Source: an uncultured bacterium
GTDB taxonomy: Bacteria > Patescibacteriota > JABMPQ01 > CAVVCK01
DNA length: 64,000 bases
Assembly: GCA_963746775.1 (NCBI GenBank)
Contig: CAVVCK010000002.1
Span: forward strand, 367,592 to 431,591
Direction: 5' to 3'
The position numbers and the translations under genes are program-made. Shown here one piece after another: positions 1 through 56,039 of this stretch (its first letter is position 1; each line of letters begins with the position of its first letter). The notes beneath the pieces are model-generated. The model was not told the DNA's origin. It saw only the letters and a program-made list of their open reading frames with translations, and made no database searches.

Positions 1-1067
1 AAGTTACATCACCTCTTCTAGTTGCTACATACCAAGTACAATATCCATAGGGGAATCCATTGGCAGAATATCTGGCGGTTGTAGATACTTGCCTACTAGT
101 AGGTGTACTATTACCAGCGCTAGAAGTTGAAGCGGCTGGACTACCAGTGTTTGCACTAGCAAGCAGCGTATTTGTAGGTTGAGCTGGTCTTGGTCTTTCT
201 TTTATTTCTCTCTTACCATCAGGGATAACTAATATCTGACCTGCTTCAATATCTGAGGCAAGTAATAAATTATTATATTTTTTAATTGTCTCTTCATCAA
301 CACCTTGTTTCTTAGCAATACTAGATAGCGTTTCACCAGCATCAACACGCTCAGTTGTACCAGATACAGGTAGAATAGATAAACTCATACCTGGCTTTAT
401 AATATCATCTGCGTATAAATCATTTTCTTGTAAAATTGTAGCTGCATCTATGCTAAATTTCTTAGCTATAGAAGATACTGTATCACCATCTTTTACACTA
501 TATTTAGATACTCCTGATTTTGCTTTTCCTGCCACCTTATCACTAGTCTCAGTCATATTTTTTCTAACCAGGGTATCATTACCTAAAGTATTTAGAGATT
601 CTTTTTCAGCGACATCTTCTTCTGAGGCCATAACGCCTTGATTATTAATAGAACCAGACACAAAGGCCGCTGAAGCCATAGAAATCATTGGCAAATAGTT
701 TTTATCCTTTTTTCTACCAGCATCGAAATCGCTTTTTACAACTTCATACTTATCATCTTCAGGAAATAATAAGTCAACTAAAATACTACTATCTTTAGCA
801 GACACTGTTATTTCATCATTAGCAATGATGTTAAAACCACCAATAGCAAGAGCTACGATAATAACACCAGCGTGTAATGAATTTTTATTTTGTCTTGATA
901 GTAGTTTCTCGTAAATACTTCTTAAATTTTCTACCCTTTCTCTCTTTAAAATATAAACAAATCCTTTTTTTGATTTTTGTATAACTTTTCCTAAAAAGTG
1001 CGATACCTTCTTAAAACTTAATAATAAAGCTTTAATAGGCTTTGAAATTGCTTTTAGGCTTAATTTC
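1..1067 (-). CDS. Membrane-anchored cell-wall hydrolase-like protein with two LysM repeats and a CHAP/NlpC-P60-like domain; 3' end runs off the window
   Basis: Minus-strand ATG at 1067 (MKLSLKAISK...), N-terminal TM segment, two LysM-like repeats (DGDTVSSIAKKF..., AGETLSSIAKKQGV...), then NGFPYGYCTWYVATRRG, which resembles the CHAP/amidase Cys motif. No stop before coordinate 1. Not in the ORF track because it is truncated. Confidence 0.55.
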
Positions 1068-1416
1068 ATATAACTATTTGACTGGTGACCAGATCAAGTA
1101 TAAACAGAATTACATCCACTATCCAGTCAAATTACCCCGAATTTATATAGTACTATGACCTATATAAACTCATATTGGGACCGTAACCCTTTTAAATAAG
1201 GGAATTACACGGAAATTAATCGATCTTTCTAAACACTGTTTTGACTTAATTTTGACTTAAATTAAGGCAAAAAGATGTCTATTGACTATTAAAGATCAAT
1301 CACCTTCTCTTAACTATGTTCACCATACTATATGATTGAAGAATGGTGTCAAGGGAATATCAATTTTCTATATTAAACTATTTTTAGACTTAAATTTTGT
1401 CTTATCAACAGCTAAA

Positions 1417-1815
1417 TTACCTATTATCTCCATCCCCATGTAATGTCCCTCTTTCTTTTCTAGAATATAACTTTTTAATATTTTTTTCAGCTATATCATC
1501 TAGTGATAATTTTAATTCTGTTGCCATTTGGGATAAATACCATAGAACATCACCTAATTCTTTTTCCAATTCTACTCTTTTTTCATTAGTTATACTCCCA
1601 TCTCCGTCTCGAAAAACTTTCTTTATCTTTTCCGCTATTTCTCCTGACTCGCCCACTAAACCTAGTGTAGTATAAACAAAATTATTACCTTGATTAGGAT
1701 AGATAGCTGTTTTCCTTGATTTTTCTTGATATTCTTTGAAATCCACTTTTTTAAATATAAGGCTTAAATTCTTACATTTGTATGTTATCAAATTTCCCAA
1801 TTTTTGAAAGTGCAT
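1417..1815 (-). CDS. MazG-like nucleotide pyrophosphohydrolase (small MazG family)
   Basis: 132 aa; conserved MazG-type helices (LGLVGESGEIAEKIKK, ELGDVLWYLSQMATEL). Confidence 0.55.
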   Translation of the reverse strand: MHFQKLGNLITYKCKNLSLIFKKVDFKEYQEKSRKTAIYPNQGNNFVYTTLGLVGESGEIAEKIKKVFRDGDGSITNEKRVELEKELGDVLWYLSQMATELKLSLDDIAEKNIKKLYSRKERGTLHGDGDNR

Positions 1816-3221
1816 AACATTTACAACAAATTGAACGATTACAACATTTAGAGCATTTCACAACACATCCTACTAGAACGCATAAAGTGAGGAGAGAGAT
1901 TTTTAACCCGAAGGGTTAACCCCTGATAGGAGTATTTCCTTATAGGGTTAATATTCTCAATTTATATATAATATAATTACATAAAAAATGAGAATGTCTT
2001 CATGCGTTCTAGTAAAAAGTGTTTTTTTATAAAAGTTATTTACCTGGCTTTAGCCAGATATAATCAGAATGGCTGGCTAAAGCCAGGTAAATAATTATTC
2101 TTATTTTTTTAATGTTTTAATGAGTCATGCCGCCATCCATTGAAAAACAGAGGAATTAAACTTAAAAGCTTTCATTATTACTTTAACTCTTAGTTTCAAC
2201 ATTCATCCTCCGAAATCTTAAATAAAGGAAGATTCTTTTCCGCTTGCGCAGGCAAGCCTCTGCTTATCAATAGATAGTTATATTTTCTCCCCTTTCTAAG
2301 GGGAGGTAGAGGGGTATTCACAATGTTCTTGTGATTCTATTTAATAACGTGATAAAAATCCCTTTATAACTCTCCCTTTTATAGGGGAAACTTATTTTTA
2401 ATGTTCTTGTGTTATCTTGTTATCTTGATTCCACCCATCAGTAGAAGGAAAGAAGCTTAGGACTTATAAAATATATTTAAGGCCCTAGAACTTTTATCTC
2501 TCTCCTTCTGCTGTTAGATAGAATCTTATCCTTCTCCCCTCAATTGAGAAGAAGAAGAATATAGAATATATGTTTTAATGTTATTGTGTTATTTTGTTAT
2601 CTTGATTTTCCCCCAAAGTAATGAAGAGAAGTACCTACGAGGGACATACAATGTTATTAATTCCCTATAGATAACTCTCTCCTCTCCATTACCCTGAAGG
2701 ATTTATTCTCCTAAAGAAAGGGTATTTACAATGTTTTACAATTCTTACCAGAATAATGAAGAGGACAAGCCTTAGGGTATATAATATTACTTTGACCCTA
2801 AAAAGCTTATTTACTCTCTCCCCTTCATTATTCCGATAAATAAAATACGGGTGACTCAATAAGGAAGAGCCACCCGTATTTATATATTACTACAATATTT
2901 AACAAATCTATCAAATATTATATAAATGTATCCACCACAAAAGGTGGACTTAGGTTAAAAACGGTTTACAGCACCGTTTTTTAGCTGACTCTCTCCCCAG
3001 AGAATTTGCTAATATCTATTAATTTGTGAAAGTTCTTTTTGGACAATTTTCATTTTACTTGAATATTATATCATATATTAAAAAATATGTCAATACTATT
3101 TTGACATATTCTATATATTATTATGTAATATTTACTATATTTAGCTTAAAATAGCTATTTTAAGCTAAATTAAAAATATCTATTACCTTGGAAATATTTT
3201 TTATATTAATTTTTGAATTAA

Positions 3222-3515
3222 TTACTGAACTGCCAACTCCCCAGAAAAAGGACTACTTTTCAATAATACCCCTTCTTCTTTTTCAGTAATCGCTTTCTTT
3301 CTTTTTAAAGTTTTAACTATATTATTTACTCTACTATCCACTTTACGAATTACAGGCATATCTTTACTTTTTTGTATTTCAGCGCTTACATGCTTTTTCA
3401 TATTTTCTTCAAGTTCTTTCAATTCATCTTCTAGGTTTTTATGCGTTGCAAACTTTTCCAAATTTTCTTTTTTAACAACATTCCTCTCTATAGAAATAGC
3501 CAAATTTTCTACCAA
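3222..3515 (-). CDS. Hypothetical coiled-coil protein (TTG start)
   Basis: 97-aa ORF, K/E-rich, no recognisable motif; a tandem 21-bp repeat lies immediately upstream. Confidence 0.3.
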   Translation of the reverse strand: MVENLAISIERNVVKKENLEKFATHKNLEDELKELEENMKKHVSAEIQKSKDMPVIRKVDSRVNNIVKTLKRKKAITEKEEGVLLKSSPFSGELAVQ

Positions 3516-3529
3516 ATTACTTAGTTTAT

Positions 3530-3650
3530 CAAATTTTTTTATCTATTTTATCAAATTTAAGATCAAACTTATTATTTACTTTTTTAAACTCGTTATCTAC
3601 TTTCTTAAATTTATTATCTATTTTTTTAAACTCATTTTTTGTTTCTTTAT
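3530..3650. repeat. Tandem ~21-bp repeats (ttatctaYtttNttaaaYt), 5 copies
   Basis: Read by eye. On the minus strand they encode a 40-aa ORF MDKETKNEFKKIDNKFKKVDNEFKKVNNKFDLKFDKIDKK. Confidence 0.5.
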
Positions 3651-3682
3651 CCATATTTTTATTTTAAGATTTTCATTTTATA

Positions 3683-4282
3683 CTATTTTATTTCTTTAGC
3701 CAAATTGAAGACCTTTTTATTCATTTCAAAATATTTCTCATTAATAATATTCTTTATACCACCTAATAGTTTATCTTCTTCTAAAGGAATATAGCCTTTA
3801 TGGAATGCATAACCTAACAAAAATATATTCAAGGGTACATTATTACCCACTGCTTTTCTAACTATACTGTCGCCTTCTACAAAATCTATTTTTTTTGTAA
3901 ATTTTTCAATGTCGCTTCTAATTTCTTCTGTATTAGGATAGGGTTTTTTATCAAAATTAACTGAGATAGGTACAATTTTAGTATTATTTATTACTACCTG
4001 AGTATCCTTGGAAGCATAAATTAATGATCTTAAAGCTTCTACCGGCTCAGTCGATAAAATCAAATCAGCTCCAGCTTGAGGTACTAAAGAGGAGTGGACT
4101 TTTTCACCAAATTTTACATGCGACTGCGTAGCTCCGCCTCTTTGTGCCAATCCATGTACTTCGGACATTTTTACATCCAATCCAGATAACATCGCCGCTT
4201 CAGCAATAATTCTGGAGAGAGTAATGCCGCCTTGACCACCGACAGCAGGAATGACTATGTTGTATGTTTCTTTATTTTGCAT
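3683..4282 (-). CDS. iorB: Indolepyruvate:ferredoxin oxidoreductase subunit beta
   Basis: 199 aa, IPAVGGQGGITLSRIIA; sits immediately downstream of iorA. Confidence 0.75.
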   Translation of the reverse strand: MQNKETYNIVIPAVGGQGGITLSRIIAEAAMLSGLDVKMSEVHGLAQRGGATQSHVKFGEKVHSSLVPQAGADLILSTEPVEALRSLIYASKDTQVVINNTKIVPISVNFDKKPYPNTEEIRSDIEKFTKKIDFVEGDSIVRKAVGNNVPLNIFLLGYAFHKGYIPLEEDKLLGGIKNIINEKYFEMNKKVFNLAKEIK

Positions 4283-4353: not shown

Positions 4354-6240
4354 TTAGAACAGTTTAATAGCTCCAAACGGACAAACCTGCGAACACGCTC
4401 CGCAACCAGAACATAACTCTTTATCAATAAAATATTTATCACCTTCGTGTTGAATTGCTGGACAAGCATATTGATTAGTACAAGTACCACACTTTTTACA
4501 TTCACTCTGATCTATTTCAAAAGGAATAATTTTCTGCCCGCTCTTTCTCATTTCACTCCAGCGAAGAAGAATACAAGGCCCCTTAGCAACTAATACTGAT
4601 GGCCCCTTAACTTCCAATAATTCTTTGACCGCTGCTTGTGTTTCTTTCAAATTATAAACACTGACAACTTTCATATGCTTAATTCCACAAGCGCGTACAA
4701 TTTCTTCTACATTTACTTCACTAACTTTTTCTCTCATACCATTTCGACCCATGCCTGGATTAGGCTGATGACCAGTCATGGCTGTGATCCTATTATCCAT
4801 GATTACTATTAAAGAATTGGAATTATTATAGACAGTATTCAAAAGTCCGGAAATTCCAGCGTGAAAAAATGTTCCATCCCCAATAAATGAAATAGTTTTA
4901 TTTTTCTTAGCAGTTTCTGTACCAAAATAATCAGCCGCTTTTCTAATACCATGAACAATCCCAATATTGGCTCCCATATCATACATAAAATCAGCCATTT
5001 CGTAAGGAGGAAAAGCACCCAACATATAGCAACCAATATCTCCGCCAAAGACTGTACCTTGAGGCGCCATTTTTTTAACAGAGAAAAAGGTAGCACGATG
5101 CGGACAGCCCGGACACATTACAGGATATCTTCTAATAATATCTAAATCCTTAAATCTTTTTAAATGATCATCTAAATTTATTCGCTCAGATTTATTAAGT
5201 AATTTTGATAAAGCTTTTTCAACTATTTCTGGCCTGAGCTCTCCAGATCTTGGAATTAATTCTTTACCAGTTACTTTTAGTCCACAATTAACCTTACCTG
5301 CAATTGCTCTAACATCATTTTCTACCATAGGCTCCAGCTCATCAACAACTAATACTTCCTCTTTATCCTTAATAAAATCGGAAATATTTTTCTCCGGTAC
5401 AGGATAAGTTGCCCCTAATTTTAAAATAGGTAGTTTTATTCCTAAATTATCCAATGCTTCTCGGACATAACACATAGAAACGCCAGAAGTTATAATGCCA
5501 AATTTACTTTTTTCATCATTATTTTCAACATAATTAAAACTTGATTCTTCGAAATCTTTTTGTAATTCTTTTAGTTTCCCTAATATTCTATTGTGATTCT
5601 CTATCATTTTAGGAGCAAAGGTGAAATAACGATCATGGTCTTTCTTAAATTCCGCCTTCTGTCCAGTAGTACCCTTAATTTCTCCAACATTTACTGGACT
5701 TGAAGTATGGCATACTCTAGTAGTTAAACGCAGCATTACCGGAATTTTATACTTAGCTGATATTTCATAAGCCTTTTTAGTATAATCTAGCGCCTCTTGA
5801 GGATCTGATGGTTCAATCAAAGGAGCATTAGCCATACGTGCATAATAACGCGTATCTTGTTCTGATTGTACTGAACTCCAGCATTGTGGATCATCAGTAA
5901 CCACTATCACTATAGGTCCATCTGATTCTACATAGAAAGCAGGCATAAAACTATCTGAAGCAACATTCAAACCAAAGCTTTTAAATGAAACCATGGTCTT
6001 AAGACCAGATAGTGAGGCACCAATTCCGGCTTCTAAGGCTACTTTCTCATTTGTAGAATATTCAAAATACATCCCAGCATCTTTAGCAATTTCAGAAAAA
6101 GTATCCCCTATTTCTGAGGAAGGTGTGCCAGGGTAACAAGATGAAAAAGCAACACCTGATTCAAGCGCACCACGTACCACCGCTTCATTACCAAGCATAA
6201 ATAATTTCTTATCTTTATTTAAAACGTTTGTTTTACCCAT
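4354..6240 (-). CDS. iorA: Indolepyruvate:ferredoxin oxidoreductase subunit alpha (TPP-dependent, 2x[4Fe-4S])
   Basis: 628 aa; TPP-binding region GDGTFFHAG; C-terminal ferredoxin motifs CKKCGTCTNQYACPA and CSGCGACSQVCPFGAI. Confidence 0.85.
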   Translation of the reverse strand: MGKTNVLNKDKKLFMLGNEAVVRGALESGVAFSSCYPGTPSSEIGDTFSEIAKDAGMYFEYSTNEKVALEAGIGASLSGLKTMVSFKSFGLNVASDSFMPAFYVESDGPIVIVVTDDPQCWSSVQSEQDTRYYARMANAPLIEPSDPQEALDYTKKAYEISAKYKIPVMLRLTTRVCHTSSPVNVGEIKGTTGQKAEFKKDHDRYFTFAPKMIENHNRILGKLKELQKDFEESSFNYVENNDEKSKFGIITSGVSMCYVREALDNLGIKLPILKLGATYPVPEKNISDFIKDKEEVLVVDELEPMVENDVRAIAGKVNCGLKVTGKELIPRSGELRPEIVEKALSKLLNKSERINLDDHLKRFKDLDIIRRYPVMCPGCPHRATFFSVKKMAPQGTVFGGDIGCYMLGAFPPYEMADFMYDMGANIGIVHGIRKAADYFGTETAKKNKTISFIGDGTFFHAGISGLLNTVYNNSNSLIVIMDNRITAMTGHQPNPGMGRNGMREKVSEVNVEEIVRACGIKHMKVVSVYNLKETQAAVKELLEVKGPSVLVAKGPCILLRWSEMRKSGQKIIPFEIDQSECKKCGTCTNQYACPAIQHEGDKYFIDKELCSGCGACSQVCPFGAIKLF

Positions 6241-8093: not shown

Positions 8094-8128
8094 AATAAAT
8101 AAAATTGCTAAAAAATAATAAAAATAAA

Positions 8129-8899
8129 ATGAAACAGGAGAAAAAATTTAAAAAGCTACGTATTTTTAATGTAGTTATGGGATTCTTTCATGCTCTTCAG
8201 GGAACCTTAATGCTTTATTTGAGTAATGATTTCACTCTGCCTATTAATTCTTCTTTTTTAAAATTTATTCCGGAAAAACAAGCTCTTTCTCCTTTTATTG
8301 AAAAACTATACGATATAAAAGTTGGACCGGCTATTGCTTGTTTTCTATTTCTCTCTGCTTTGGCTCATTTTATTATCAGCCTGCCCGGTATAAATAGCTG
8401 GTATGTTAAGAATTTGAAAAAAGGCGCTAATTTTGCCCGCTGGATAGAATATTCCGCTAGCTCGTCTTTAATGATTGTTATAATCTCTATGTTAGTCGGT
8501 ATTTATGATATTGCCAGCTTAATTTTAATTTTTGCCGTAAATACTTGTATGATTTTATTCGGCTGGATGATGGAGCGGCACAATATGGATACTAATAAAG
8601 TTAATTGGACATCTTTTATTTTTGGCTCCTTTGCCGGATTAATACCTTGGGTTTGTGTTGCTATTTATTTATTCGGTTCCGGTGATGGTGATAATAAAGC
8701 GCCAACCTTTGTTTACTGGATATTTTTCTCAATGTTTATATTCTTTAATTTATTCGCCATTAATATGATTCTGCAATATAAAAAAGTTGGTCCCTGGAGG
8801 GATTATTTATTTGGTGAAAAAATGTATATAATTTTAAGCTTAGTTGCCAAGTCTCTACTCGCCTGGCAAGTTTTTGCTGGAACCCTAAGACCAGTATAA
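8129..8899 (+). CDS. Heliorhodopsin (7TM microbial rhodopsin of the heliorhodopsin family)
   Basis: The track ORF 8105..8899 starts at TTG; the ATG at 8129 is likely the real start. Strong colinear similarity to heliorhodopsin 48C12 as I recall it: FHALQ, NDFTLP, FLFLSALAHFI, RWIEYSASSSLMIVI, MILFGW, LIPW, FVYWIFFSMFIFFNLFA, QYKKVGPWRDYLFGEKMYIILSLVAKSLLAWQVFAGTLRPV. The TM7 retinal lysine sits in SLVAKS. Confidence 0.9.
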   Translation: MKQEKKFKKLRIFNVVMGFFHALQGTLMLYLSNDFTLPINSSFLKFIPEKQALSPFIEKLYDIKVGPAIACFLFLSALAHFIISLPGINSWYVKNLKKGANFARWIEYSASSSLMIVIISMLVGIYDIASLILIFAVNTCMILFGWMMERHNMDTNKVNWTSFIFGSFAGLIPWVCVAIYLFGSGDGDNKAPTFVYWIFFSMFIFFNLFAINMILQYKKVGPWRDYLFGEKMYIILSLVAKSLLAWQVFAGTLRPV

Positions 8900-20597: not shown

Positions 20598-20624
20598 GTA
20601 GGGCAGGATCGGATCCTGCCCTAC
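20598..20624 (-). terminator. GC-rich palindromic hairpin (gtagggcaggatc|ggatcctgccctac)
   Basis: Perfect 13-bp-arm palindrome between the inositol monophosphatase and rdgB genes. Confidence 0.5.
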
Positions 20625-36658: not shown

Positions 36659-37552
36659 TTAAATATGAACTTGATATTTATTTTTAGCCTTTTTTATCAA
36701 ATATTCAACCATCCTATCGTTAATATCATATTTTAGATCTTCTATTATAGGAACAAAATTAAGAGGAAAATTAACTTCAAAAATCTTTAAATTACCACTT
36801 TTATCATAAACAAAATCCACTGCTCCTAATTCTATATCTAGGGTTGATACAGCCTTTACTAATATTTTTTCATCTTCTTTTGGTAATTTTATTATTTCTC
36901 TTTTTCTTGTAGTTTGGTCAACATTAGACCTAAAATCATCACTAGAACTGACATTAGTATTTTTATAAGCAATTTCTAATTTATCACCTAAAATCACAGC
37001 CCTATTTGAATAAGAAGGTTTTCCAATATCAATAAATTCTCTTATTACCAGCTCATCAACATTTTCCGATCTCAAATAATCCACTACTGAAAAAAGAGAT
37101 GATAATGAATCTATTTTAAGAACTCCTACACCGCAACTACCGCCTACGACTTTCAAAATAACAGGAAAACCACCTACATAATCAACATATTTTTTTAGTA
37201 AATCCCGATTTTCACTTAAGTCAAATATTGTTTTGGGCACAGGAACATTCTCCTTTTGATGAACAAAAAAAGAAGTAGGATATTTAGAAATTGATCTTTT
37301 ATAATCTTTATAAAATGTAGTTAGTTCTTTGCTTAACAGAAATTTCTCTAGCGTTTGACATCTCTTTGCAATATATGGTCTATATAACATATCGCCCTTT
37401 TCTATTTTAATATTATTAGTATAGTCATAGGTTTCAATATAGAGCTCATGAAAATCTACTTTTAATTTTTCACAGGAAGATCTTAAATATTCAACTATTT
37501 CGGGTTTTGTATTTTTTTTGCATATACAATAAAATTTCATTTTTTTATACAT
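36659..37552 (-). CDS. RimK-like ATP-grasp ligase (tandem paralog 1)
   Basis: 297 aa; GGFPVILKVVGGSCGVGVLKIDS and EVNFP ATP-grasp motifs. The Ddl alternative was considered but the N-terminal Ddl motifs are absent. Confidence 0.55.
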   Translation of the reverse strand: MYKKMKFYCICKKNTKPEIVEYLRSSCEKLKVDFHELYIETYDYTNNIKIEKGDMLYRPYIAKRCQTLEKFLLSKELTTFYKDYKRSISKYPTSFFVHQKENVPVPKTIFDLSENRDLLKKYVDYVGGFPVILKVVGGSCGVGVLKIDSLSSLFSVVDYLRSENVDELVIREFIDIGKPSYSNRAVILGDKLEIAYKNTNVSSSDDFRSNVDQTTRKREIIKLPKEDEKILVKAVSTLDIELGAVDFVYDKSGNLKIFEVNFPLNFVPIIEDLKYDINDRMVEYLIKKAKNKYQVHI

Positions 37553-37616
37553 TATTTTATTTATATAATAATTTTGTTCTCAATTCAAAGATTACAAATA
37601 TTATGCTTTTACATCT

Positions 37617-38510
37617 TTATCTTTTTTGTTTTTTAAAAACACTAATAGCATAATCAAAAAGATGCTCTGTTGGACTTATGCCAGTATACTTTCTAAATCC
37701 ACCAAACCCTGGACAGTTTTCTATTTCTAAAACATATACTCTATTTTTATATTTTAATAAATCAACCCCCAATACATCATTTTTTGTTACTTTAGCTAAT
37801 TTTTCTGCAATATTTTTCATCTCTTTGCTTAATTTTGCCTTTTCGCCTGATCCACCTTGATGTAAATTACCTCTAAAATCATTCTTCGCTGCTATTCTTT
37901 TATAAACTCCTAATACTTTATACCCAACTACTAAAACTCTATAATTACTTCTTACTGGAATGTATTCTTGTATTAGCAATCCTGTTTTTGATTTAAAATA
38001 ATTTTTGAATTTATTAGCATCCTTTTCGCTAGTTAATTTTTCTACTTCTTTACCCATCCAGCCATGAGGATCTTTTATTATCACAGGAAGTTTTACATTT
38101 TCTATTATATTTTTAAAGCAGAAATAGCTATTTACAATATATGTTTTAGGATGATTTAACTTTAATTTTTTTAAGATATTAATAAAGCTCACTTTATCCG
38201 AATTAGTCCTACCATCACAAAAACTCTGGTTGATTACTATTTTTTTATTTTTATCTAAATATTTTGCTAAAAAATATATTTCTTCCACAAAACTTTTCAA
38301 GTCTGGTCTAAAAATAAAAACATCATAGTCTAATAAATTATGTTTACAACAATAGACATTCAGACTACCATTGTCCCATTTACAGACAATATCTTCCATA
38401 AAAAATAGATTTACAGAAATATTTAATTTCCTTCTTTTAATAATATTGTCTATGTCTTTATATAAAGTGGCTTTGGGAAACTGTTTTAAACCAATTGTAG
38501 CAATCTTCAT
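37617..38510 (-). CDS. RimK-like ATP-grasp ligase (tandem paralog 2)
   Basis: 297 aa; LPVIIKDPHGWMGKEV and LEIENCPGFGGFRKYTG resemble the RimK C-terminal LEVNSSPGLEGIEKATG. Confidence 0.55.
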   Translation of the reverse strand: MKIATIGLKQFPKATLYKDIDNIIKRRKLNISVNLFFMEDIVCKWDNGSLNVYCCKHNLLDYDVFIFRPDLKSFVEEIYFLAKYLDKNKKIVINQSFCDGRTNSDKVSFINILKKLKLNHPKTYIVNSYFCFKNIIENVKLPVIIKDPHGWMGKEVEKLTSEKDANKFKNYFKSKTGLLIQEYIPVRSNYRVLVVGYKVLGVYKRIAAKNDFRGNLHQGGSGEKAKLSKEMKNIAEKLAKVTKNDVLGVDLLKYKNRVYVLEIENCPGFGGFRKYTGISPTEHLFDYAISVFKKQKR

Positions 38511-38527
38511 ATTACATTGTTTGTTAT

Positions 38528-39952
38528 TTATTTGGTTGTATCGACTAGAAATCTCTTCAAATCTCTCTTCCCAATAATTACTTTATACCGTAAAAGTTTC
38601 CTGTTAGTCACATTAGTTTTGGAAATAACTTTAATTCCTGATAATATAAAGGTTATTTTAATATAAGGACGTAAACTTAAACCATGTGATGACCTAATCC
38701 AAGCAACATCAACGATTTCACCATTTTCCTTTTGTAAAATATTTCTAACTTTTCTAGCTTCATTAGTAGCCTCTTTATCTGTCAACTCAGGACTTAATTC
38801 TTTTGTCTCTAATAAATTTAATATGTCTTGATAACCTAATTTACTAGCCAGTTCTCTATCTATTGAAGTCGAATCAGCTCCCGTATCTATTTTAGCCATA
38901 ACTTCAAAATTTTTATCGCCTTCTTTACTAAACAATTTCACTTTTTCAATACTTCCAATCACTTCTCTATTAGACACTTCTTCTACTCTTCTCTCAACAT
39001 CCCCTCCAAATAAATCTTTAGCAATCCTAATGCCATGCGCCACTGATTTTACTTTTAAACCTTTAACTCTCTTCAATCTTCCAGCCAAGCCTTCTAAATT
39101 GGCTACTTGAATATCAAGCCCTGGCCTGGCATTTAGTTCTAAAATTTCCGGACCGTATTTTTTATCAATAGCTATATCTACCCCTAAATATCCTAAATTA
39201 GTAGCAACTTGCGCTTCTACGCTCATTTCTAGTATTTTATCCCACTCTGGTATTTGAAAATCTGATAACTTTTGATTAGTGTCAGGGTGGCTATCAATTA
39301 TTTTTCTAGATGGTAATTTAGTCATGGCAGTCGTAGTCATCCCCGAACCAATATCAATTCCAACTGCTACTGCTCCTTGGGCAATATTAGCTCTTCCTTG
39401 AGATCTTTCGGTGGGAAGACGCATCATGGACATTACCGGCACTTTATTAAACACAATTATTCTGATATCCGGAATTCCCCGGCGAGTATAGTTTTTAAAA
39501 ATTGGATGAGTAGTTAATTTTCTTTCAATAAAAGCTGTATCTGGTAAACCTTGCAGGGAAAAACTACCATCTAAAATATCTAATACATGTGATTTTAATT
39601 TTTCAAAATCCCAAAGATTACCGGAACTTGTATACCATTCTCTTCTACGTAATGGCAATTTTAAAAATGCTTCTTTTTTCTTACTACGACGTAATAAGAC
39701 TATCCCCTCTCCACCAAAACCTCTATTAGGTTTTATAACAAAATTCGCCGGTAATTTTTTCCAATCAAAACTTTCAAAATCTTTTATAGTTCTGATAACA
39801 CCATATAATCTAGGCGTAGATATGCCAGTTTTTATTAATATTTCTTTCGAATCCAATTTACTGTCAGCCAATCTGACTGCCTTTTTTTTATTGTAGGGAC
39901 GAATAAAATTTAGGTTTCTTTCATTCATTCCTAAAATTTCATTTTGAGCCAT
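38528..39952 (-). CDS. Alpha-L-glutamate-ligase-like ATP-grasp enzyme fused to a C-terminal retropepsin-like (DTGA) aspartyl protease domain
   Basis: 474 aa; N-terminal ILGMNERNLNFIRPYN...IKPNRGFGGEGIVLL...ELNARPGL (ATP-grasp); C-terminal VMAKIDTGADSTSID (retropepsin / RimK-associated Zn_protease-family motif). Confidence 0.6.
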   Translation of the reverse strand: MAQNEILGMNERNLNFIRPYNKKKAVRLADSKLDSKEILIKTGISTPRLYGVIRTIKDFESFDWKKLPANFVIKPNRGFGGEGIVLLRRSKKKEAFLKLPLRRREWYTSSGNLWDFEKLKSHVLDILDGSFSLQGLPDTAFIERKLTTHPIFKNYTRRGIPDIRIIVFNKVPVMSMMRLPTERSQGRANIAQGAVAVGIDIGSGMTTTAMTKLPSRKIIDSHPDTNQKLSDFQIPEWDKILEMSVEAQVATNLGYLGVDIAIDKKYGPEILELNARPGLDIQVANLEGLAGRLKRVKGLKVKSVAHGIRIAKDLFGGDVERRVEEVSNREVIGSIEKVKLFSKEGDKNFEVMAKIDTGADSTSIDRELASKLGYQDILNLLETKELSPELTDKEATNEARKVRNILQKENGEIVDVAWIRSSHGLSLRPYIKITFILSGIKVISKTNVTNRKLLRYKVIIGKRDLKRFLVDTTK

Positions 39953-41527
39953 TTATTTCTTATTATCTTGGCGAGTAAATCTTTTTATTTCTCTAAATCG
40001 GATATATTCAGAAATACGAAGTCCTACCCATTTGGCCATTAAAATATTTATAACAAAAGTGAGTAATAAGCTTTCTGGATAAGCAAGTATAAAAGTCGTT
40101 AAAACATCCCAGCTAGCTACATAATAACATGCTACAGAAACTAAAATCGTTTCCAGAGATAGCATAATAGCTGTACGTGGCCCTTTTTCCATTTGAATAG
40201 CAATAAATTTTTCTACCATGATAATTAATACCAGTATAGGCAAGATCGAAATACCAATGATACCAGTTCTATTTGTAGCTGCTCCAACTACAAACATAGC
40301 CAAAATAGTAAAAGCAACGATAGATAGTACTATCGCCATTCTAGGTAAATACAAAAATCTGAATTTTCTCAATAATAATCTAACCAAGGTTGCTGCTACT
40401 AATATAACTATAAATATGGTTAATCCGTATTTTAAACCAGTAGCTAAAAATGAAAGTGTAATAATTGATGGTGTATAAATACCAAATGTTTTAATTCCTA
40501 AAAATTGACGAAAAAAGGCAATAATAGTAGCAATAATCGGCAACATAAGCATTAAAATAATATTATCTGTCGATACTCCTTTATTGATTAAATAATTAAT
40601 TGTATAGCTCATAAAATTCGTTATGCCTAAATCTTTTATTCCGCGCTCGCTATAGAAAGTAATTAAATTATGACTAATTCCCGCCTCTCTAATTGACTCT
40701 AATATCTCATCTGCTTTTTTGGCTTCAATTACATAATCAAGAGCAGATTTTTTAGTTAAAAGTATGTATTTTGGATTTAAAACATCAAAAGTGGATTGAG
40801 CATAACGAGCAATAGAAGTGAATCCACCTTCCGTAATATTAATAACAGCTTTATTATTAACATTTAAACTTTCTAAATCTTCACTCTTTTGAGCAAATTT
40901 TGATAAGACATTTAAACCCAAATTCCCCGATGTCCAAACTATAATAGCTGATGAATTCTTTACAACTTCGCTATTTTCTAAAAGCGAATCAGCCAATGTC
41001 CCCTCTACAATATAGTCAGGATCAGCTTTATCATTTCTGATATCAAATAAATATACCCTTTCTCTCGAAGCTGTTTTCCTTATAGGCTGTAAATCTTCTT
41101 CCAGAATAGATTTATCCGTTATTAAAATTATAGAATCTTCATATATTTTTACTATTAATTCATCAGTATCTTCTCCTGCCTCATTTTTGCTTTTTAAAAT
41201 TACACTGTAGTCTCCTGAGTTATTATATAAATGTTCTATTTTCGAACCTGCTCCTGATTCACCATCTCCAAAATCCCATTCATATTGGGTATTGCTATTA
41301 TCATCCTCTTCATTCGTAATTGCCTTAAAAACTACTTTATAACCTAATAATTGTTCTGAATCTGGCCCAGCATTAGCTTTGGGAATTTTTATTTCTGGCT
41401 TATTTTCTTCAATATTTTCTTGATTTACATTATTATCTCCTGTCTTATTTTCGTCTTGAGCAAAAGCATAAGAAAAACCAAAAATAATCAAGCTTATTGT
41501 TAAAAATAATGTTATAAATTTTTTCAT
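39953..41527 (-). CDS. Secreted PKD-domain protein with a C-terminal 7TM domain (7TM receptor-like partner of ATP-grasp/retropepsin systems)
   Basis: 524 aa; signal peptide; PKD-like YEWDFGDGESGAGSKIEHLYNNSGDYSV; ~200-aa extracytoplasmic domain; seven predicted TM helices at the C-terminus. Confidence 0.5.
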   Translation of the reverse strand: MKKFITLFLTISLIIFGFSYAFAQDENKTGDNNVNQENIEENKPEIKIPKANAGPDSEQLLGYKVVFKAITNEEDDNSNTQYEWDFGDGESGAGSKIEHLYNNSGDYSVILKSKNEAGEDTDELIVKIYEDSIILITDKSILEEDLQPIRKTASRERVYLFDIRNDKADPDYIVEGTLADSLLENSEVVKNSSAIIVWTSGNLGLNVLSKFAQKSEDLESLNVNNKAVINITEGGFTSIARYAQSTFDVLNPKYILLTKKSALDYVIEAKKADEILESIREAGISHNLITFYSERGIKDLGITNFMSYTINYLINKGVSTDNIILMLMLPIIATIIAFFRQFLGIKTFGIYTPSIITLSFLATGLKYGLTIFIVILVAATLVRLLLRKFRFLYLPRMAIVLSIVAFTILAMFVVGAATNRTGIIGISILPILVLIIMVEKFIAIQMEKGPRTAIMLSLETILVSVACYYVASWDVLTTFILAYPESLLLTFVINILMAKWVGLRISEYIRFREIKRFTRQDNKK

Positions 41528-54505: not shown

Positions 54506-54916
54506 TCAAAACACGTCTTCACTAATTTTCCGTTTCTCTTTTTTTATTGACCTTTCTTTTTTTTCTTTCAACCTTCTCTTAACTGATCCTCTAGTCGGTT
54601 TTGTCGGCACTCTTTTCTTTACAGATTTAATTGCCATATTAATCAAACTATTAAATTTATCAATTACCTCTACCCTATTTTGCCATTGCTGCCTCTCACT
54701 CTGAGAATAAAGAATTAAATTTCCCTGCTTATCAATTTTATTTTTCAAATTTATAAATACTCTTCTCTTCTGTTCTTCGTTTAAAAAAGTGGAATTAATA
54801 ATATTCCACTTCAGAGTTACTTTTGTTGAAACCTTATTAACATTCTGCCCACCTTTGCTAGAAGATCTGGAAAAAGTTAATGCATATTCATTTTCTGGAA
54901 TAGTAATTTTATTCAT
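54506..54916 (-). CDS. arfB: Peptidyl-tRNA hydrolase ArfB (alternative ribosome-rescue factor B, GGQ domain)
   Basis: SRSSSKGGQNVNKVSTKV GGQ motif plus a basic C-terminal tail. Likely start MNKITIPE (54916); the track ORF extends to 54982 through a repeat element. Confidence 0.7.
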   Translation of the reverse strand: MNKITIPENEYALTFSRSSSKGGQNVNKVSTKVTLKWNIINSTFLNEEQKRRVFINLKNKIDKQGNLILYSQSERQQWQNRVEVIDKFNSLINMAIKSVKKRVPTKPTRGSVKRRLKEKKERSIKKEKRKISEDVF

Positions 54917-54956
54917 ATTAGTATAATTCGTATGTATTAGTATATTAGCATCGCAT

Positions 54957-56039
54957 CTAGTATCGAAGTAATGCTCCAACATTGCCTAATTTTTCTAACT
55001 CTTCACTCTCTTGTACAAACTCCACTTTCCCACCCTGCGCTATTACTTGCTGCACTAATTCATCAATTACATCCTCCACTTCTTCTTTATTATTCTCACA
55101 TTGCTTACAATCATCTTTTTTATAAATCAACTTATCACAATTTGTACAAATATAGCCCGGTTTCTGCAAGCCTTCTTTTACAATTAATTTCATAATTTTC
55201 TTCTCAAAAGAAACTTGCAGCACTTCGTCTAAACCCGAGACTGCCTTATTCCCATCACCTAAATTTTCTTTTAATAATTGGACTTGTTCTTTTTCTTTTT
55301 CTCTTTCAACTTTTTCTTCAATTTTCAATGATTGTTCTAAAAAATGTTGATCATTTTCAAACATTTCTGTGTAGAAATCACCAACTAATTTATCTTTTAA
55401 ATCATTGTGTAATAATTTTTCAAATTCTACCATTGCTTCTTTTGTCCCTCCAATAATTAATCGATCAAAATCTTTTTCTCTAAAATAGTTATAAGCTCTA
55501 TCAGCTACTTCTTTTAAATTTTTATGTTCGATAGCATTAATGTGCCCCTGAAATCTTTTTTGAGATGATCCGCCTTTTTTATGCTTACCTGGAAATTCAT
55601 TAAAAACATTAGTTATATCTTCAATCTCACCCAAATAAACTGAAAATATTTTTGCTTTTTCTTTATCTACCACAATTGTGCAATATCTTTCGTATTCATC
55701 AAACATAGCAAATAATGGTTTTAAGTGTAGGTTATTTTCTATATGAATTTGATTAGAAAATGGCTTATTCAGCTTATAACTATAAGCAATATCTTCTCTG
55801 GGATTTAGGAAAAATACTACCCCTTTGGATTTTTTGTCGGGAACTAATCTAGCTTGATCTAAGACTAATTTATAATTTTCTTCTCCAATTATTTCTTTGG
55901 ATTTTTTAAGTAAATTTTTTAAATTTATTAAAATTTTCTCCGGAGTATTATATTTTTGATCGGCATTTAAATAAAGACTGATAGTCGGGGTATTTGTTTT
56001 AATTTTATTAAGTTCTTTTAGTTCTTCTTGGGTAATCAT
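54957..56039 (-). CDS. eRF1/Pelota(Dom34)-like three-domain protein (bacterial eRF1-like, baeRF1) with inserted C4 zinc ribbon
   Basis: 360 aa; central-domain loop FPGKHKKGGSSQKRFQ aligns with eRF1 KHGRGGQSALRF but has S in place of the catalytic Q; C-terminus GNVGALLRY matches the eRF1/Pelota end motif; CTNCDKLIYKKDDCKQC zinc ribbon. Confidence 0.55.
   Translation of the reverse strand: MITQEELKELNKIKTNTPTISLYLNADQKYNTPEKILINLKNLLKKSKEIIGEENYKLVLDQARLVPDKKSKGVVFFLNPREDIAYSYKLNKPFSNQIHIENNLHLKPLFAMFDEYERYCTIVVDKEKAKIFSVYLGEIEDITNVFNEFPGKHKKGGSSQKRFQGHINAIEHKNLKEVADRAYNYFREKDFDRLIIGGTKEAMVEFEKLLHNDLKDKLVGDFYTEMFENDQHFLEQSLKIEEKVEREKEKEQVQLLKENLGDGNKAVSGLDEVLQVSFEKKIMKLIVKEGLQKPGYICTNCDKLIYKKDDCKQCENNKEEVEDVIDELVQQVIAQGGKVEFVQESEELEKLGNVGALLRY

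What the first reader, a model, noticed from the sequence alone, without database searches (positions are those of the whole stretch)
1850..3220. 1.35 kb gene-free, hairpin-dense region with degenerate ~78-bp tandem periodicity
No ORF of 60 aa or more occurs in any frame across 1.35 kb, which is unusual for this compact genome. The segment contains many short hairpins whose pyrimidine arms (ctctcc/ccctt) pair with purine arms (ggggagg/gagaag). The motif (T)ACAATGTT / TTAATGTT recurs at 2323, 2400, 2575, 2650 and 2729, with spacings of about 75-79 bp and one doubled unit. Two near-identical 33-bp copies, TTAATGTTcTTGTGTTATcTTGTTATCTTGATT, sit at 2398 and 2574. The region ends in terminator-like hairpins at 2930-2949, 2960-2985, 3086-3110 and 3139-3171. 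It could be an array of small-RNA genes or promoters, a decayed repeat array, or a mobile-element remnant.
Basis: seen in the sequence. Interest (0 to 1): 0.55.

Follow-up and report, generated by a model that had tools for sequence, protein, structure and literature searches.

The report
Conserved hairpin-rich noncoding RNA locus
The gene-free stretch is a real, evolutionarily conserved block of highly structured noncoding RNA on the minus strand of a small symbiotic (CPR/Patescibacteria) bacterial genome; it matches no known RNA family, its function is unknown, and the claimed 78-bp periodicity is not real.

Summary
The ORF-free, hairpin-dense region is real. It runs 1747-3221, the largest gap in the window. 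It is not a ~78-bp tandem array: only a 177-bp offset is significant (z 13 against 2.6 for 78 bp).

Syntenic loci from six or more related Patescibacteria keep a 1.4-1.9 kb noncoding block between the IOR genes and MazG. The shared parts, read on the minus strand, are:
- a consensus sigma-70 promoter (3093-3065);
- a ~220-nt 5' module ending in a hairpin plus U-tract;
- paralogous ~100-nt hairpins, with a GGAGAGAG purine 5' arm and a CU-rich 3' arm (three in the window);
- a ~145-nt three-way-junction core (2132-2278), 87-92% identical across genomes whose MazG third codon positions are 66-70% identical;
- a terminal hairpin (1862-2023) exposing an invariant single-stranded AAAUCUCUCUCCUCA, complementary to the GGAGAGAG boxes.

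Substitutions keep pairing through G·U only on the minus strand. There are no matches in Rfam, phage, plasmid or viral-contig searches, no adjacent effector gene and no protein remnants. The genome almost lacks Shine-Dalgarno sites.

Best reading: a clade-restricted orphan structured ncRNA locus, probably acting by RNA-RNA pairing between the boxes and the CU-rich seed. Transcription and function are untested.

The parts
3139..3170 (.). Perfect 16+16-nt palindrome (ATTTAGCTTAAAATAG/CTATTTTAAGCTAAAT) upstream of the promoter. Its role is unknown: it could be the terminator of the upstream ORF or an operator.
   Evidence: I8, 100% complementary, no spacer. TTAGCYTAAAAT-like motifs recur upstream of the promoter in L056 but not in L053.
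3065..3093 (-). Sigma-70-type promoter TTGACA-17-TATAAT with a TG extension. The inferred transcription start is near 3058.
   Evidence: 12/12 match, the best in the region. The same 12/12+TG promoter sits at the same relative place in L053 (3242-3270) and L056 (4351-4379). The start site is inferred, not measured.
2832..3058 (-). 5' module (~220 nt). It contains the M0 box UUCUCUGGGGAGAGAGU (2988-3004) folded as a small hairpin, and hairpins at 2957-2982 and 2930-2949. It ends in a GC-rich hairpin (2843-2881) followed by UUUUAUUUAU, which looks like an intrinsic terminator.
   Evidence: Fold z = -8.25. L053 and L056 have the same layout, with CUCUUUGAGGAGAGAGU and a long hairpin plus U6-8; L063 reads the same way in its sequence.
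2742..2843 (-). Hairpin module U2. It has a purine-rich 5' arm (AAUGAAGGGGAGAGAG), an inner UAGGG...CCCUA hairpin and a CU-rich 3' arm. This copy is seen only in the window.
   Evidence: Covariance model R1 scores 68.3 bits on the minus strand. Fold z = -6.57 on minus against -4.31 on plus.
2607..2704 (-). Hairpin module U3. Orthologues are present in L053, L056, L063 and L073, and its apical loop AAYAAAUAACAUUGU is conserved in sequence.
   Evidence: R1 scores 58.3 bits. Fold z = -6.13 on minus against -1.78 on plus. BLAST blocks match L056, L053 and L063.
2573..2606 (-). A/C-rich linker AUCAAGAUAACAAAAUAACACAAUAACAUUAAAA (copy 1 of the 34-nt repeat).
2427..2529 (-). Hairpin module U4. Orthologues are present in L053 (two copies), L055, L056, L063, L051 and L073.
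   Evidence: R1 scores 100.5 bits on minus against 36.3 on plus. Fold z = -5.72. It is 88.7% identical to L055.
2396..2429 (-). Linker copy 2, AUCAAGAUAACAAGAUAACACAAGAACAUUAAAA. It contains (AAGAUAAC)x2, an 8-nt microsatellite that is expanded to 12 and at least 16 copies in relatives.
2287..2389 (-). Two short hairpins with a pyrimidine 5' arm, a loop and a purine 3' arm: CUCCCCUUAGAAAGGGGAG at 2287-2305 and UCCCCUAUAAAAGGGAGA at 2371-2389. The intervening linker carries AACAUUGUGAAUAC.
   Evidence: Equivalent hairpins occur in L053, L055 and L063.
2132..2278 (-). Conserved core, a three-way junction. P1 is about 21 bp. P2 ends in CUGC-GCAA-GCGG (a GNRA loop). P3 is AUCUUCC/GGAGGAU. P4 is AACUAAGAG/CUUUUA-GUU in the window (AACUGAGAG in the relatives).
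   Evidence: It is 87-92% nt identical to relatives, against 82-85% for the MazG CDS and 66-70% for its third codon positions. The structure has 44 pairs with 97.4% of cells paired, and 6 pairs changed on both sides against 2.5±1.2 in shuffles. The 25-aa ORF inside it is not conserved.
2031..2099 (-). Double hairpin, or a 27-bp long hairpin (UUACCUGGCUUUAGCCAG...CUGGCUAAAGCCAGGUAA). It is terminator-like in both directions.
   Evidence: (I1). It is conserved in L056:5664-5731, where compensatory changes favour two small hairpins (CCGGC/GCCGG). The miRNA-family 'hits' only reflect the hairpin shape.
1862..2023 (-). Terminal element I3. It has a 15-bp basal stem (CUAGAACGCAUGAAG/CUUUAUGCGUUCUAG) and variable apical hairpins. 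An invariant unpaired 3'-side strand, AAAUCUCUCUCCUCA (+ strand 1888-1902), is complementary to the GGAGAGAG boxes.
   Evidence: Alignment of 7 lineages. All six orthologues folded adopt this architecture, with the CU-rich strand unpaired (z = -5.6 to -10.7). Duplexes with M0 and the U boxes are -18.4 to -20.2 kcal/mol, 10-11 bp.
1802..1822 (-). Conserved box AAUGUUAUGCACUUUCAAAA between I3 and the MazG start. Its role is unknown; it may be a MazG promoter or operator region.
   Evidence: It is present in all relatives read.
1417..1746 (-). MazG-family NTP pyrophosphohydrolase (109 aa, GTG start at 1746). This is the downstream neighbour, given for context only.
   Evidence: Pfam MazG 4.1e-12. 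Homologues are 109 aa and cover 83% of the 132-aa ORF.

Best explanation
The region is a clade-restricted, functional noncoding RNA locus read from the minus strand. It is not a tandem repeat array.

One consensus sigma-70 promoter (3093-3065) drives a chain of structured modules:
- a ~220-nt 5' module ending in a terminator-like hairpin;
- three paralogous ~100-nt hairpins, in which a GGAGAGAG-type purine box is paired to a CU-rich arm;
- a strongly conserved three-way-junction core;
- a terminator-like double hairpin;
- a terminal hairpin (I3), just upstream of MazG, that displays an invariant single-stranded AAAUCUCUCUCCUCA.

Most likely mechanism (inferred): RNA-RNA pairing between this CU-rich 'seed' and the GGAGAGAG boxes of the same locus. 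In relatives the seed could also pair with the GGAGA-type ribosome-binding site of the secreted TSP3-repeat protein gene that lies between the core and I3. This would be an anti-Shine-Dalgarno-style riboregulator with decoy boxes, in a genome that otherwise hardly uses Shine-Dalgarno sites.

Shown: conservation, strand-specific structure, the promoter motif and the complementarity.
Inferred: transcription, transcript boundaries, pairing in vivo and any regulatory output.

My confidence that this is a selected, structured minus-strand RNA locus is about 0.75. My confidence in the box/seed pairing mechanism specifically is about 0.25.
For: Positional conservation
- Relatives with MazG 82-91% identical keep IOR-[1.4-1.9 kb without conserved genes]-MazG-LysM/CHAP-RsmA.
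- Blocks of the window align in the same order to L053, L056, L055, L051, L063 and L073.

Selection
- The core is 87-92% nt identical, against 82-85% for the MazG CDS and 66-70% at its third codon positions.
- The small ORF in the core is destroyed in relatives.
- The TSP3 gene between the core and I3 is absent in the window, L055 and L073 with different boundaries. The core and I3 are kept each time.

Strand
- The minus strand folds at -419 kcal/mol against -326 for plus.
- Module z-scores are -4.5 to -6.6 on minus against -1.8 to -4.3 on plus.
- The covariance model scores 55-106 bits on the RNA strand against 36-52 bits on the other.
- Single-sided substitutions keep pairs through G·U.

Structure
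- Core: 97.4% of cells paired, 45-54% when partners are slid, and 6 compensatory pairs.
- I3: same architecture with unrelated apical sequences in six genomes.

Promoter
- A 12/12+TG promoter in three genomes.

Complementarity and context
- The I3 seed forms 10-11-bp duplexes with M0 and the U boxes (-18.4 to -20.2 kcal/mol), and M0 is the best site in 3 of 4 genomes.
- GAGAG is 5-fold enriched on the RNA strand, and GGAGAGAGW gives 7 hits against 0.55 expected.
- Only 2 of 56 genes have a Shine-Dalgarno site.
- L069's TSP3-like gene starts behind GAGGAGAGAGAAAUG.
Against: - There is no expression data of any kind.
- The terminator-like hairpin after ~220 nt (2843-2881 plus a U-tract) could stop most transcripts. 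No second good promoter was found, so the downstream modules may be poorly transcribed or need read-through.
- Only 7 closely related lineages were available, so covariation is modest. Most core pairs are invariant (27 of 44).
- For the purine/pyrimidine hairpins, the slid controls still pair at 58-78%.
- The seed and the boxes are nearly invariant, so the proposed pairing has no covariation support.
- The boxes in U2-U4 are buried in 20-27-bp stems.
- The locus is confined to one narrow clade. MazG relatives at 76-79% identity have a different context.
- L063 lacks the consensus promoter at its contig end.
Confidence: 0.45

Rival explanations
1. The region is a long cis-acting leader or attenuator. 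The promoter at 3093-3065 would drive the MazG-LysM/CHAP-RsmA operon (and, in relatives, the TSP3 gene). The hairpins would be a series of regulated terminators or stability elements, with I3 and the conserved box as the operon-proximal control element.
For: - It is on the same strand as MazG and always directly upstream of it.
- Terminator-like hairpins lie inside it (2843-2881, 2031-2099).
- I3 and the AAUGUUAUGCACUUU box are always within ~120 nt of the MazG start.
- There is no U-tract after I3.
Against: - A 1.3-kb leader (2.7 kb in L053, with two ORFs inside) is far outside normal leader sizes.
- MazG has its own promoter-like site downstream of I3 (TTGATA-17-TATAAC in L056, my reading).
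- The core is kept regardless of which gene follows it.
Confidence: 0.2
2. The region is a protein-binding scaffold or a processed hairpin array. The 20-27-bp purine/pyrimidine helices would be substrates or decoys for a double-strand RNA-binding protein or RNase III. The A/C-rich linkers (AAGAUAAC repeats, GAACAUU motifs) would bind a single-strand RNA-binding protein.
For: - Long near-perfect helices rich in G·U.
- Repeated linear motifs in the linkers, conserved across genomes.
- Module number varies between genomes, as in sponge-type RNAs.
Against: - No candidate partner is encoded next to the locus or anywhere in the 64-kb window.
- GGA is not enriched (15.6 against 14.6 per kb), so a CsrA-type sponge is unlikely.
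- This reading does not explain the invariant CU-rich strand of I3.
Confidence: 0.15
3. The region is non-functional DNA: a graveyard of palindromic selfish repeats (MITE/REP/BOX-like), or leftovers of deleted genes, that happens to fold well because of inverted repeats.
For: - Module number and linkers change between close relatives, and a microsatellite expands and contracts.
- A gene (TSP3) has been lost from this very gap.
- A dispersed GC-rich palindrome family exists in these genomes.
Against: - The core and I3 are conserved at or above coding-sequence level.
- Orthologous modules are kept in place across species, with pair-preserving changes.
- The asymmetry between strands points to RNA.
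- There are no copies outside the locus in 230 kb searched.
- There are no protein remnants.
Confidence: 0.07
4. The region is a guide-RNA array (a degenerate CRISPR array or a TIGR-type stem-loop array) whose effector is encoded elsewhere.
For: - It consists of tandem hairpins with variable but consistently palindromic stems, in a CPR bacterium. This is the phylum in which TIGR stem-loop arrays were reported (PMC12045711).
Against: - No Nop/Tas, Cas, IS110 or TnpB-like gene is adjacent or in the 64-kb window.
- There is no regular repeat.
- The units are ~100 nt, not ~36 nt.
- The loop sequences are conserved between species rather than turning over like spacers.
- No conserved box C/D pairs were seen in the aligned units (A3; my reading).
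Confidence: 0.02
5. The region is a DNA-level element, such as a replication origin, an iteron region or a dense transcription-factor binding region.
For: - It is AT-rich.
- It carries 8-bp GATAAC direct repeats, a perfect palindrome at 3139-3170, and TATCCACC-like sequences in one hairpin.
Against: - Cumulative GC skew runs monotonically through the region, and the genes on both sides share one orientation.
- No dnaA or dnaN gene was identified among the flanking genes scanned.
- The variable spacing of the conserved I3 arms (33-130 nt apart) fits an RNA stem, not a protein-DNA site.
- G·U-dependent pairing is strand-specific.
Confidence: 0.04

Closest known systems
CU/C-rich 'anti-Shine-Dalgarno' base-pairing sRNAs and sibling-sRNA clusters of Gram-positive bacteria (Listeria LhrC1-5, streptococcal csRNAs, RsaE/RoxS); from my own knowledge, not tested here
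   Same: - A structured RNA exposes an invariant pyrimidine-rich single strand, here AAAUCUCUCUCCUCA in I3.
- That strand can pair with purine-rich, ribosome-binding-site-like sequences.
- Several paralogous hairpin modules sit in one intergenic region.
   Different: - There is no sequence or Rfam relationship.
- There is one strong promoter rather than one per unit.
- The units here carry the purine box, not the seed.
- The host genome almost lacks Shine-Dalgarno sites.
- No target has been validated.
Large orphan structured bacterial ncRNAs (OLE, GOLLD, ROOL, raiA, HEARO)
   Same: - It spans hundreds of nucleotides to about 1 kb of conserved multi-helix RNA with GNRA loops and multi-way junctions.
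- Its function is unknown.
- It was found as an unusually long noncoding gap.
   Different: - There is no match to any of these Rfam models. The only GOLLD hit is 7.6 bits against a threshold of 150.
- Its architecture is modular and variable in module number, rather than one fixed global fold.
- It is confined to a very narrow clade.
Sponge or decoy RNAs with repeated binding motifs (CsrB/RsmZ for CsrA; CrcZ for Hfq/Crc)
   Same: - It has tandem hairpins carrying a repeated short motif.
- The number of repeats varies between relatives.
   Different: - The repeated motif is GGAGAGAG inside stems, not GGA in loops.
- GGA is not enriched.
- No CsrA or Hfq gene was seen in the window. This covers only 64 kb of about 1 Mb.
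TIGR stem-loop arrays (Tas/Nop-domain RNA-guided systems; PMC12045711)
   Same: - It consists of tandem stem-loops with variable palindromic stems.
- It occurs in CPR bacteria.
   Different: - There is no tas gene.
[quoted passage not shown]
- The units are about three times longer.
- The loops are conserved between species.
Transcribed palindromic repeat elements (pneumococcal BOX, Neisseria Correia, enterobacterial REP/ERIC)
   Same: - The modules are ~100 nt and form long, stable RNA hairpins.
- They have a modular composition.
   Different: - They are not dispersed. All copies sit in one locus.
- No terminal inverted repeat or target-duplication signature was noticed.
- Orthologous copies are conserved in place across species.

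Membership tests
Any Rfam 15 family | Covariance-model score at or above the family's gathering threshold | tested here: not met
   The window's only hits at gathering threshold are two tRNAs at 56 kb. Permissive scans of the region, its sub-parts and six orthologous loci give only sub-threshold hairpin-shape hits that differ between loci.
   Tandem Repeats Finder reports no such array. Autocorrelation z is 2.6 at 73 and 78 bp against 13.1 at 177 bp, with a shuffle maximum of 6.4.
CRISPR array | At least 3 near-identical 25-40-nt direct repeats with similar-sized unique spacers, usually with cas genes nearby | tested here: not met
   The only repeat of that size has 2 copies 177 bp apart. No cas domains were found in the window.
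TIGR-Tas (dual-repeat or stem-loop array) | An adjacent Nop-domain Tas protein gene | tested here: not met
   Flanking genes are IOR alpha/beta, small non-conserved ORFs, MazG and LysM/CHAP. There is no Nop domain among 55 ORFs of the window scanned or among the called genes of L052-L057.
TIGR-Tas (dual-repeat or stem-loop array) | Units with two 8-12-nt spacers, each flanked by conserved box C / box D motifs, and variable between units | tested here: inconclusive
   I recognised no such pattern in the aligned units, and loop sequences are conserved between species. No dedicated motif search was run.
CsrB/RsmZ-type CsrA sponge | Many GGA motifs, mostly in hairpin loops, enriched over background | tested here: not met
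   GGA occurs at 15.6 per kb in the region against 14.6 per kb in the window. The recurrent motif GGAGAGAG lies in stems.
Dispersed palindromic repeat / MITE | Multiple copies dispersed in the genome | tested here: not met
   Model R1 finds units only inside this locus, in 230 kb searched. That includes the 64-kb window and about 40 kb from the same clade. A whole genome could not be searched.
Protein-coding gene or pseudogene | A conserved reading frame, or detectable similarity to proteins encoded at the same place in relatives | tested here: not met
   There is no ORF of 60 aa or more under three stop-codon sets. The small ORFs are not conserved. tblastn with the TSP3, 110-aa, 40-aa and 142-aa proteins of relatives finds nothing in the window.
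Chromosomal replication origin | A GC-skew switch, a change of gene orientation, and DnaA-box clusters near dnaA/dnaN | tested here: not met
   Cumulative skew is monotonic through the region and the genes on both sides are on the minus strand. DnaA boxes were not searched formally.
Base-pairing regulatory sRNA (generic) | Own promoter and terminator, plus a conserved exposed seed with complementarity to targets | tested here: inconclusive
   The consensus promoter is conserved. Terminator-like hairpins are present. An invariant exposed CU-rich strand is complementary to GGAGAGAG boxes. Transcription and target regulation are not testable with these tools.
Structured RNA under selection (generic) | Compensatory or pair-preserving substitutions above controls, and conservation above the neutral level | tested here: met
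   In the core, 97.4% of cells are paired and 6 pairs are changed on both sides (4 of 500 shuffles reach this); slid controls pair at 45-54%. Identity is 87-92% against 66-70% at MazG third positions. I3 keeps the same fold with unrelated apical sequences. Caveat: only 7 related sequences were available.

The most novel reading that the evidence does not exclude
The locus is a self-contained RNA-RNA regulatory circuit that has not been described before in the Candidate Phyla Radiation. A multi-box decoy RNA (GGAGAGAG boxes in M0 and the U hairpins, plus a conserved three-way-junction core, possibly a ligand or protein sensor) would control the availability of a CU-rich anti-ribosome-binding-site seed (I3). 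That seed in turn would gate the few Shine-Dalgarno-bearing genes, such as the neighbouring secreted TSP3-repeat protein, in a genome that otherwise initiates translation without Shine-Dalgarno pairing. Alternatively, the whole ~1-kb transcript could be a new large 'ornate' ncRNA class.
Probability: 0.15. Interest if true: 0.7.

Novelty: new member of a known kind. Interest (0 to 1): 0.45.

Why it matters
CPR/Patescibacteria genomes are about 1 Mb and tightly packed, and almost nothing is known about their RNA-based regulation. A 1.4-1.9 kb noncoding block is kept at one chromosomal position across species. Its core is conserved as strongly as the neighbouring protein-coding gene, and it carries an invariant exposed pyrimidine strand. 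This makes it a concrete, testable candidate for a lineage-specific regulatory RNA.

If the box/seed pairing is real, it would show how an organism that has largely abandoned Shine-Dalgarno-led initiation still uses Shine-Dalgarno-like pairing for gene-specific control.

The apparent 78-bp 'array' is an effect of a short enriched motif plus one 177-bp duplication.

The limits are a very narrow taxonomic range and no expression data.

Tried and rejected
- Known RNA families. Rfam at gathering and at permissive thresholds on the window, its sub-regions and six orthologous loci gave nothing consistent. ARAGORN found only the two tRNAs at 56 kb.
- 78-bp tandem array. Rejected by Tandem Repeats Finder and autocorrelation.
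- Hidden genes under another genetic code. The longest stop-free run is 65-73 codons whichever stop set is used.
- Small peptides. The ORFs in the core and after the inferred start site are not conserved.
- Pseudogene remnants. tblastn with the proteins that relatives encode in the gap gave nothing.
- Mobile or viral origin. There was no blastn match in the phage or plasmid collections. Two core/I3 patterns were absent from viral contigs.
- Wider distribution. The metagenome pattern scan found only 2 true homologues among 7 hits. 47 GTDB loci with more distant MazG show no similarity and no comparable gap next to MazG. MazG homologues at 76-79% identity sit in other contexts.
- CRISPR or TIGR. 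No effector gene and no regular repeats.
- CsrA sponge. GGA is not enriched.
- Replication origin. There is no skew switch.
- Invertible promoter switch for I3. Rejected because the segment between the inverted repeats is itself a hairpin in every genome and is only 33 nt in L053.
- An alternative P3 pairing in the core (AAUCUU/AAGAUU). It is broken in L056, so I replaced it with AUCUUCC/GGAGGAU.
- A kissing interaction between the U3 loop (AUAACAUU) and the MazG-proximal box (AAUGUUAU). The L053 change is not compensated, so it was not retained.
- RNase P-like sequence resemblance (GCGCAAGCGG). There is no model support.
Full report
**Context**

The window is a ~30% GC genome with nearly all genes on the minus strand. 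The MazG gene next to the finding has its best relatives in Patescibacteria/Parcubacteria metagenome-assembled genomes, so this is a CPR bacterium. A Logan contig, L001, is 99.97% identical to window 1-3168.

Flanking genes on the minus strand are:
- IOR alpha (4354-6240) and IOR beta (3683-4282);
- two small ORFs (3529-3654 and 3222-3515) that have no counterpart in relatives;
- the gap;
- MazG and a LysM/CHAP protein.

MazG homologues are 109 aa, so the gene starts at 1746 and the gap is 1747-3221.

**Check of the observation**

The region is the largest ORF-free stretch in the window, 1406 nt against 659 nt for the next.
- It has no ORF of 60 aa or more.
- Reassigning stop codons does not open a reading frame.
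- It is dense in inverted repeats, with 29 pairs.

The two 34-nt copies (2396-2429 and 2573-2606) are real. They are part of a 110-nt duplication at 70% identity.

The ~78-bp periodicity, however, is not significant.
- Tandem Repeats Finder sees no such array.
- Autocorrelation at 73 and 78 bp gives z = 2.6.
- Only 177 bp stands out: z = 13.1 against a shuffle maximum of 6.4.

**Which strand?**

As RNA, the minus strand folds far better than the plus strand.
- Over 1820-3060: -419 against -326 kcal/mol.
- Per module: z = -4.5 to -6.6 on minus against -1.8 to -4.3 on plus.

The difference comes from G·U pairs, which become C·A mismatches on the other strand.

The only perfect sigma-70 promoter in the region lies on the minus strand at 3093-3065: TTGACA-17-TATAAT, 12/12 with a TG extension.

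**Relatives**

MazG homologues at 80-93% identity exist in metagenomes. Their contigs show the same synteny.
- L056, from a 1.05-Mb contig, has 1937 nt without a called gene between IOR beta and MazG.
- L053 has 1389 nt of noncoding sequence followed by a 294-aa thrombospondin-type-3-repeat (TSP3) secreted protein gene.

Blocks of the window align, in the same order and on the same strand, to L053, L056, L055, L051/L049, L063 and L073.

MazG homologues at 76-79% identity, and 47 GTDB loci with more distant MazG, lack the feature. A metagenome pattern scan added only one new homologue. The element is therefore confined to a narrow clade.

**Anatomy (minus strand, 5' to 3')**

1. Promoter, conserved 12/12+TG in L053 and L056.

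2. A ~200-235-nt 5' module.
   - It contains a small hairpin made of the box CUCU(UU)G(A/G)GGAGAGAGU (M0, 2988-3004).
   - It ends in a strong hairpin followed by a U-tract.
   - In the window this is 2843-2881 plus UUUUAUUUAU. In L053 and L056 it is a long hairpin plus U6-8; L063 reads the same way in its sequence.

3. Hairpin modules of ~100 nt.
   - Each has a purine 5' arm ending in GGAGAGAG, an inner UAGGG...CCCUA hairpin and a CU-rich 3' arm.
   - The window has three: U2 (2742-2843), U3 (2607-2704) and U4 (2427-2529).
   - L053 has three, and L056 and L063 have two.
   - A covariance model of the unit finds them only in this locus in 230 kb searched, and always scores higher on this strand: 55-106 bits against 36-52.
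   - Pairing is kept in 91% of cells. Because the arms are homopurine/homopyrimidine, slid controls still pair at 58-78%, so covariation here is weak evidence.

4. A/C-rich linkers carrying GAACAUU motifs and an 8-nt microsatellite, (AAGAUAAC)n.

5. Short hairpins with a pyrimidine arm, a loop and a purine arm.

6. A ~145-nt core (2132-2278).
   - It folds as a three-way junction: P1 of about 21 bp, P2 with a GCAA loop, P3 AUCUUCC/GGAGGAU, and P4.
   - 97.4% of cells are paired. Six pairs are changed on both sides, against 2.5±1.2 in shuffles. Slid controls pair at 45-54%.
   - It is 87-92% identical to relatives. The MazG coding sequence is 82-85% identical, and its third codon positions are 66-70% identical.
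   - The 25-aa ORF inside it is destroyed in relatives.

7. A terminator-like double hairpin (2031-2099), conserved in L056 with compensatory changes.

8. Element I3 (1862-2023).
   - It has a 15-bp stem, and apical hairpins whose sequences differ completely between genomes.
   - An invariant 3'-side strand, AAAUCUCUCUCCUCA, is unpaired in the minimum-energy fold of all six orthologues (z = -5.6 to -10.7).

9. A conserved box, AAUGUUAUGCACUUU (1802-1822).

10. MazG.

**Evidence for selection independent of neighbours**

The TSP3 gene lies between the core and I3 in L053, L063 and L069. It is decayed in L056. It is absent, with different deletion boundaries, in the window, L055 and L073. The core and I3 are retained in every case where the contig covers them.

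**Towards a mechanism**

This genome hardly uses Shine-Dalgarno sequences: 2 of 56 gene starts have one. The 5-fold enrichment of GAGAG, and 7 GGAGAGAGW hits against 0.55 expected, are therefore not ordinary ribosome-binding sites.

The invariant CU-rich strand of I3 is the exact complement of these boxes.
- Predicted duplexes are 10-11 bp, at -18.4 to -20.2 kcal/mol.
- The 5' box M0 is the best site in three of four genomes.
- In L069 the TSP3-like gene starts behind GAGGAGAGAGAAAUG.

I therefore propose an RNA-RNA pairing circuit with a CU-rich seed and purine boxes acting as targets or decoys. This step is inference. Both partners are invariant, so there is no covariation. The boxes in U2-U4 are buried in stems. 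No expression data exist. The terminator-like hairpin after ~220 nt also leaves open whether the downstream modules are made by read-through.

**Comparison with known systems**

- There are no Rfam matches.
- There is no phage, plasmid or viral similarity.
- TIGR stem-loop arrays occur in CPR (PMC12045711). But there is no Nop/Tas gene, or any other RNA-guided effector, next to the locus or among 55 ORFs scanned in the window. The units are three times longer than TIGR units, and the loops are conserved between species.
- A CsrA-type sponge is unlikely because GGA is not enriched.
- A replication origin is excluded by the monotonic GC skew.
- The closest functional analogues are CU-rich anti-Shine-Dalgarno sRNAs with sibling copies, and large orphan structured ncRNAs. 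Membership in any named family is not supported.

**Verdict**

This is a real, conserved, strand-specific structured noncoding RNA locus of unknown function: a new orphan family of a known kind.
The periodicity is not.
- Confidence in a selected minus-strand structured RNA is about 0.75.
- Confidence in the specific box/seed mechanism is about 0.25.

**Limits**

Only seven closely related lineages were available. MAFFT alignments of the hairpin interiors are imperfect. Covariance-model E-values are rough. Transcription was not measured.

Noticed in passing
window 2396-2429 (minus strand); L051:264-359; L049:8-135: An 8-nt microsatellite, (AAGATAAC)n, lies between hairpin U4 and the core. It has 2 copies in the window, 12 in L051 and at least 16 in L049, where the contig starts inside it. 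L049 and L051 encode the identical MazG protein, so the copy number varies within one species. A second x3 run follows the core in both.
   Followed up: partly
window 20598-20624; L051:1019-1081; L053:5851-5910; L056:5873-5925: A GC-rich palindrome, GTAGGGCAGGATC-N-GATCCTGCCCTAC, lies between the Ham1 and inositol-monophosphatase genes. The same hairpin, with a second GTCAGGTT..AACCTGAC hairpin, is inserted between I3 and MazG in three relatives but not in the window. It looks like a small dispersed terminator or REP-like element.
   Followed up: partly
whole window (56 gene starts): Only about 2 of 56 genes have a recognisable Shine-Dalgarno sequence upstream of the start codon. The upstream regions are A/T-rich instead.
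   Followed up: partly
L053:4513-5397; L069:27-431; L056:5275-5440; end of L063: Relatives carry a thrombospondin-type-3-repeat secreted or lipoprotein gene between the core and I3. It is GC-richer than its surroundings and has a GGAGA-type ribosome-binding site. The gene is decayed in L056 and absent from the window, L055 and L073.
   Followed up: partly
window 60093-61322 and 61327-61878 (+): A BipA/TypA GTPase appears split into two ORFs in different frames: GTP_EFTU plus D2, then EFG_C plus BipA_C. This could be a frameshift, a sequencing error or a pseudogene.
   Followed up: no
window 54506-56039 (-): A bacterial archaeo-eukaryotic release-factor-like protein (baeRF family 10, with eRF1 domains) overlaps an RF-1-domain (ArfB-like) protein. 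This may be a ribosome-rescue pair.
   Followed up: no
window 8105-8899 (+): A heliorhodopsin gene (Pfam E = 5e-103), one of the few plus-strand genes, next to two rubrerythrin-like genes.
   Followed up: no
window 36659-41527 (-): A cluster of two RimK-like ATP-grasp enzymes, a sugar-transfer-associated ATP-grasp protein with a Zn-protease domain, and a PKD plus 7TM-transglutaminase membrane protein.
   Followed up: no
window 3222-3654 (-): The 97-aa and 41-aa lysine/glutamate-rich ORFs between IOR beta and the promoter have no counterpart in L053 or L056. L053 has an unrelated 110-aa ORF there. This flank is as variable as the RNA locus is conserved.
   Followed up: partly
L001, L049, L050, L055, L072, L073 (contig ends): Many metagenomic contigs of this clade end inside the noncoding locus, for example at the 3139-3170 palindrome or inside the microsatellite. 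This may reflect assembly trouble from repeats or strain variation, but these contigs are short anyway.
   Followed up: no
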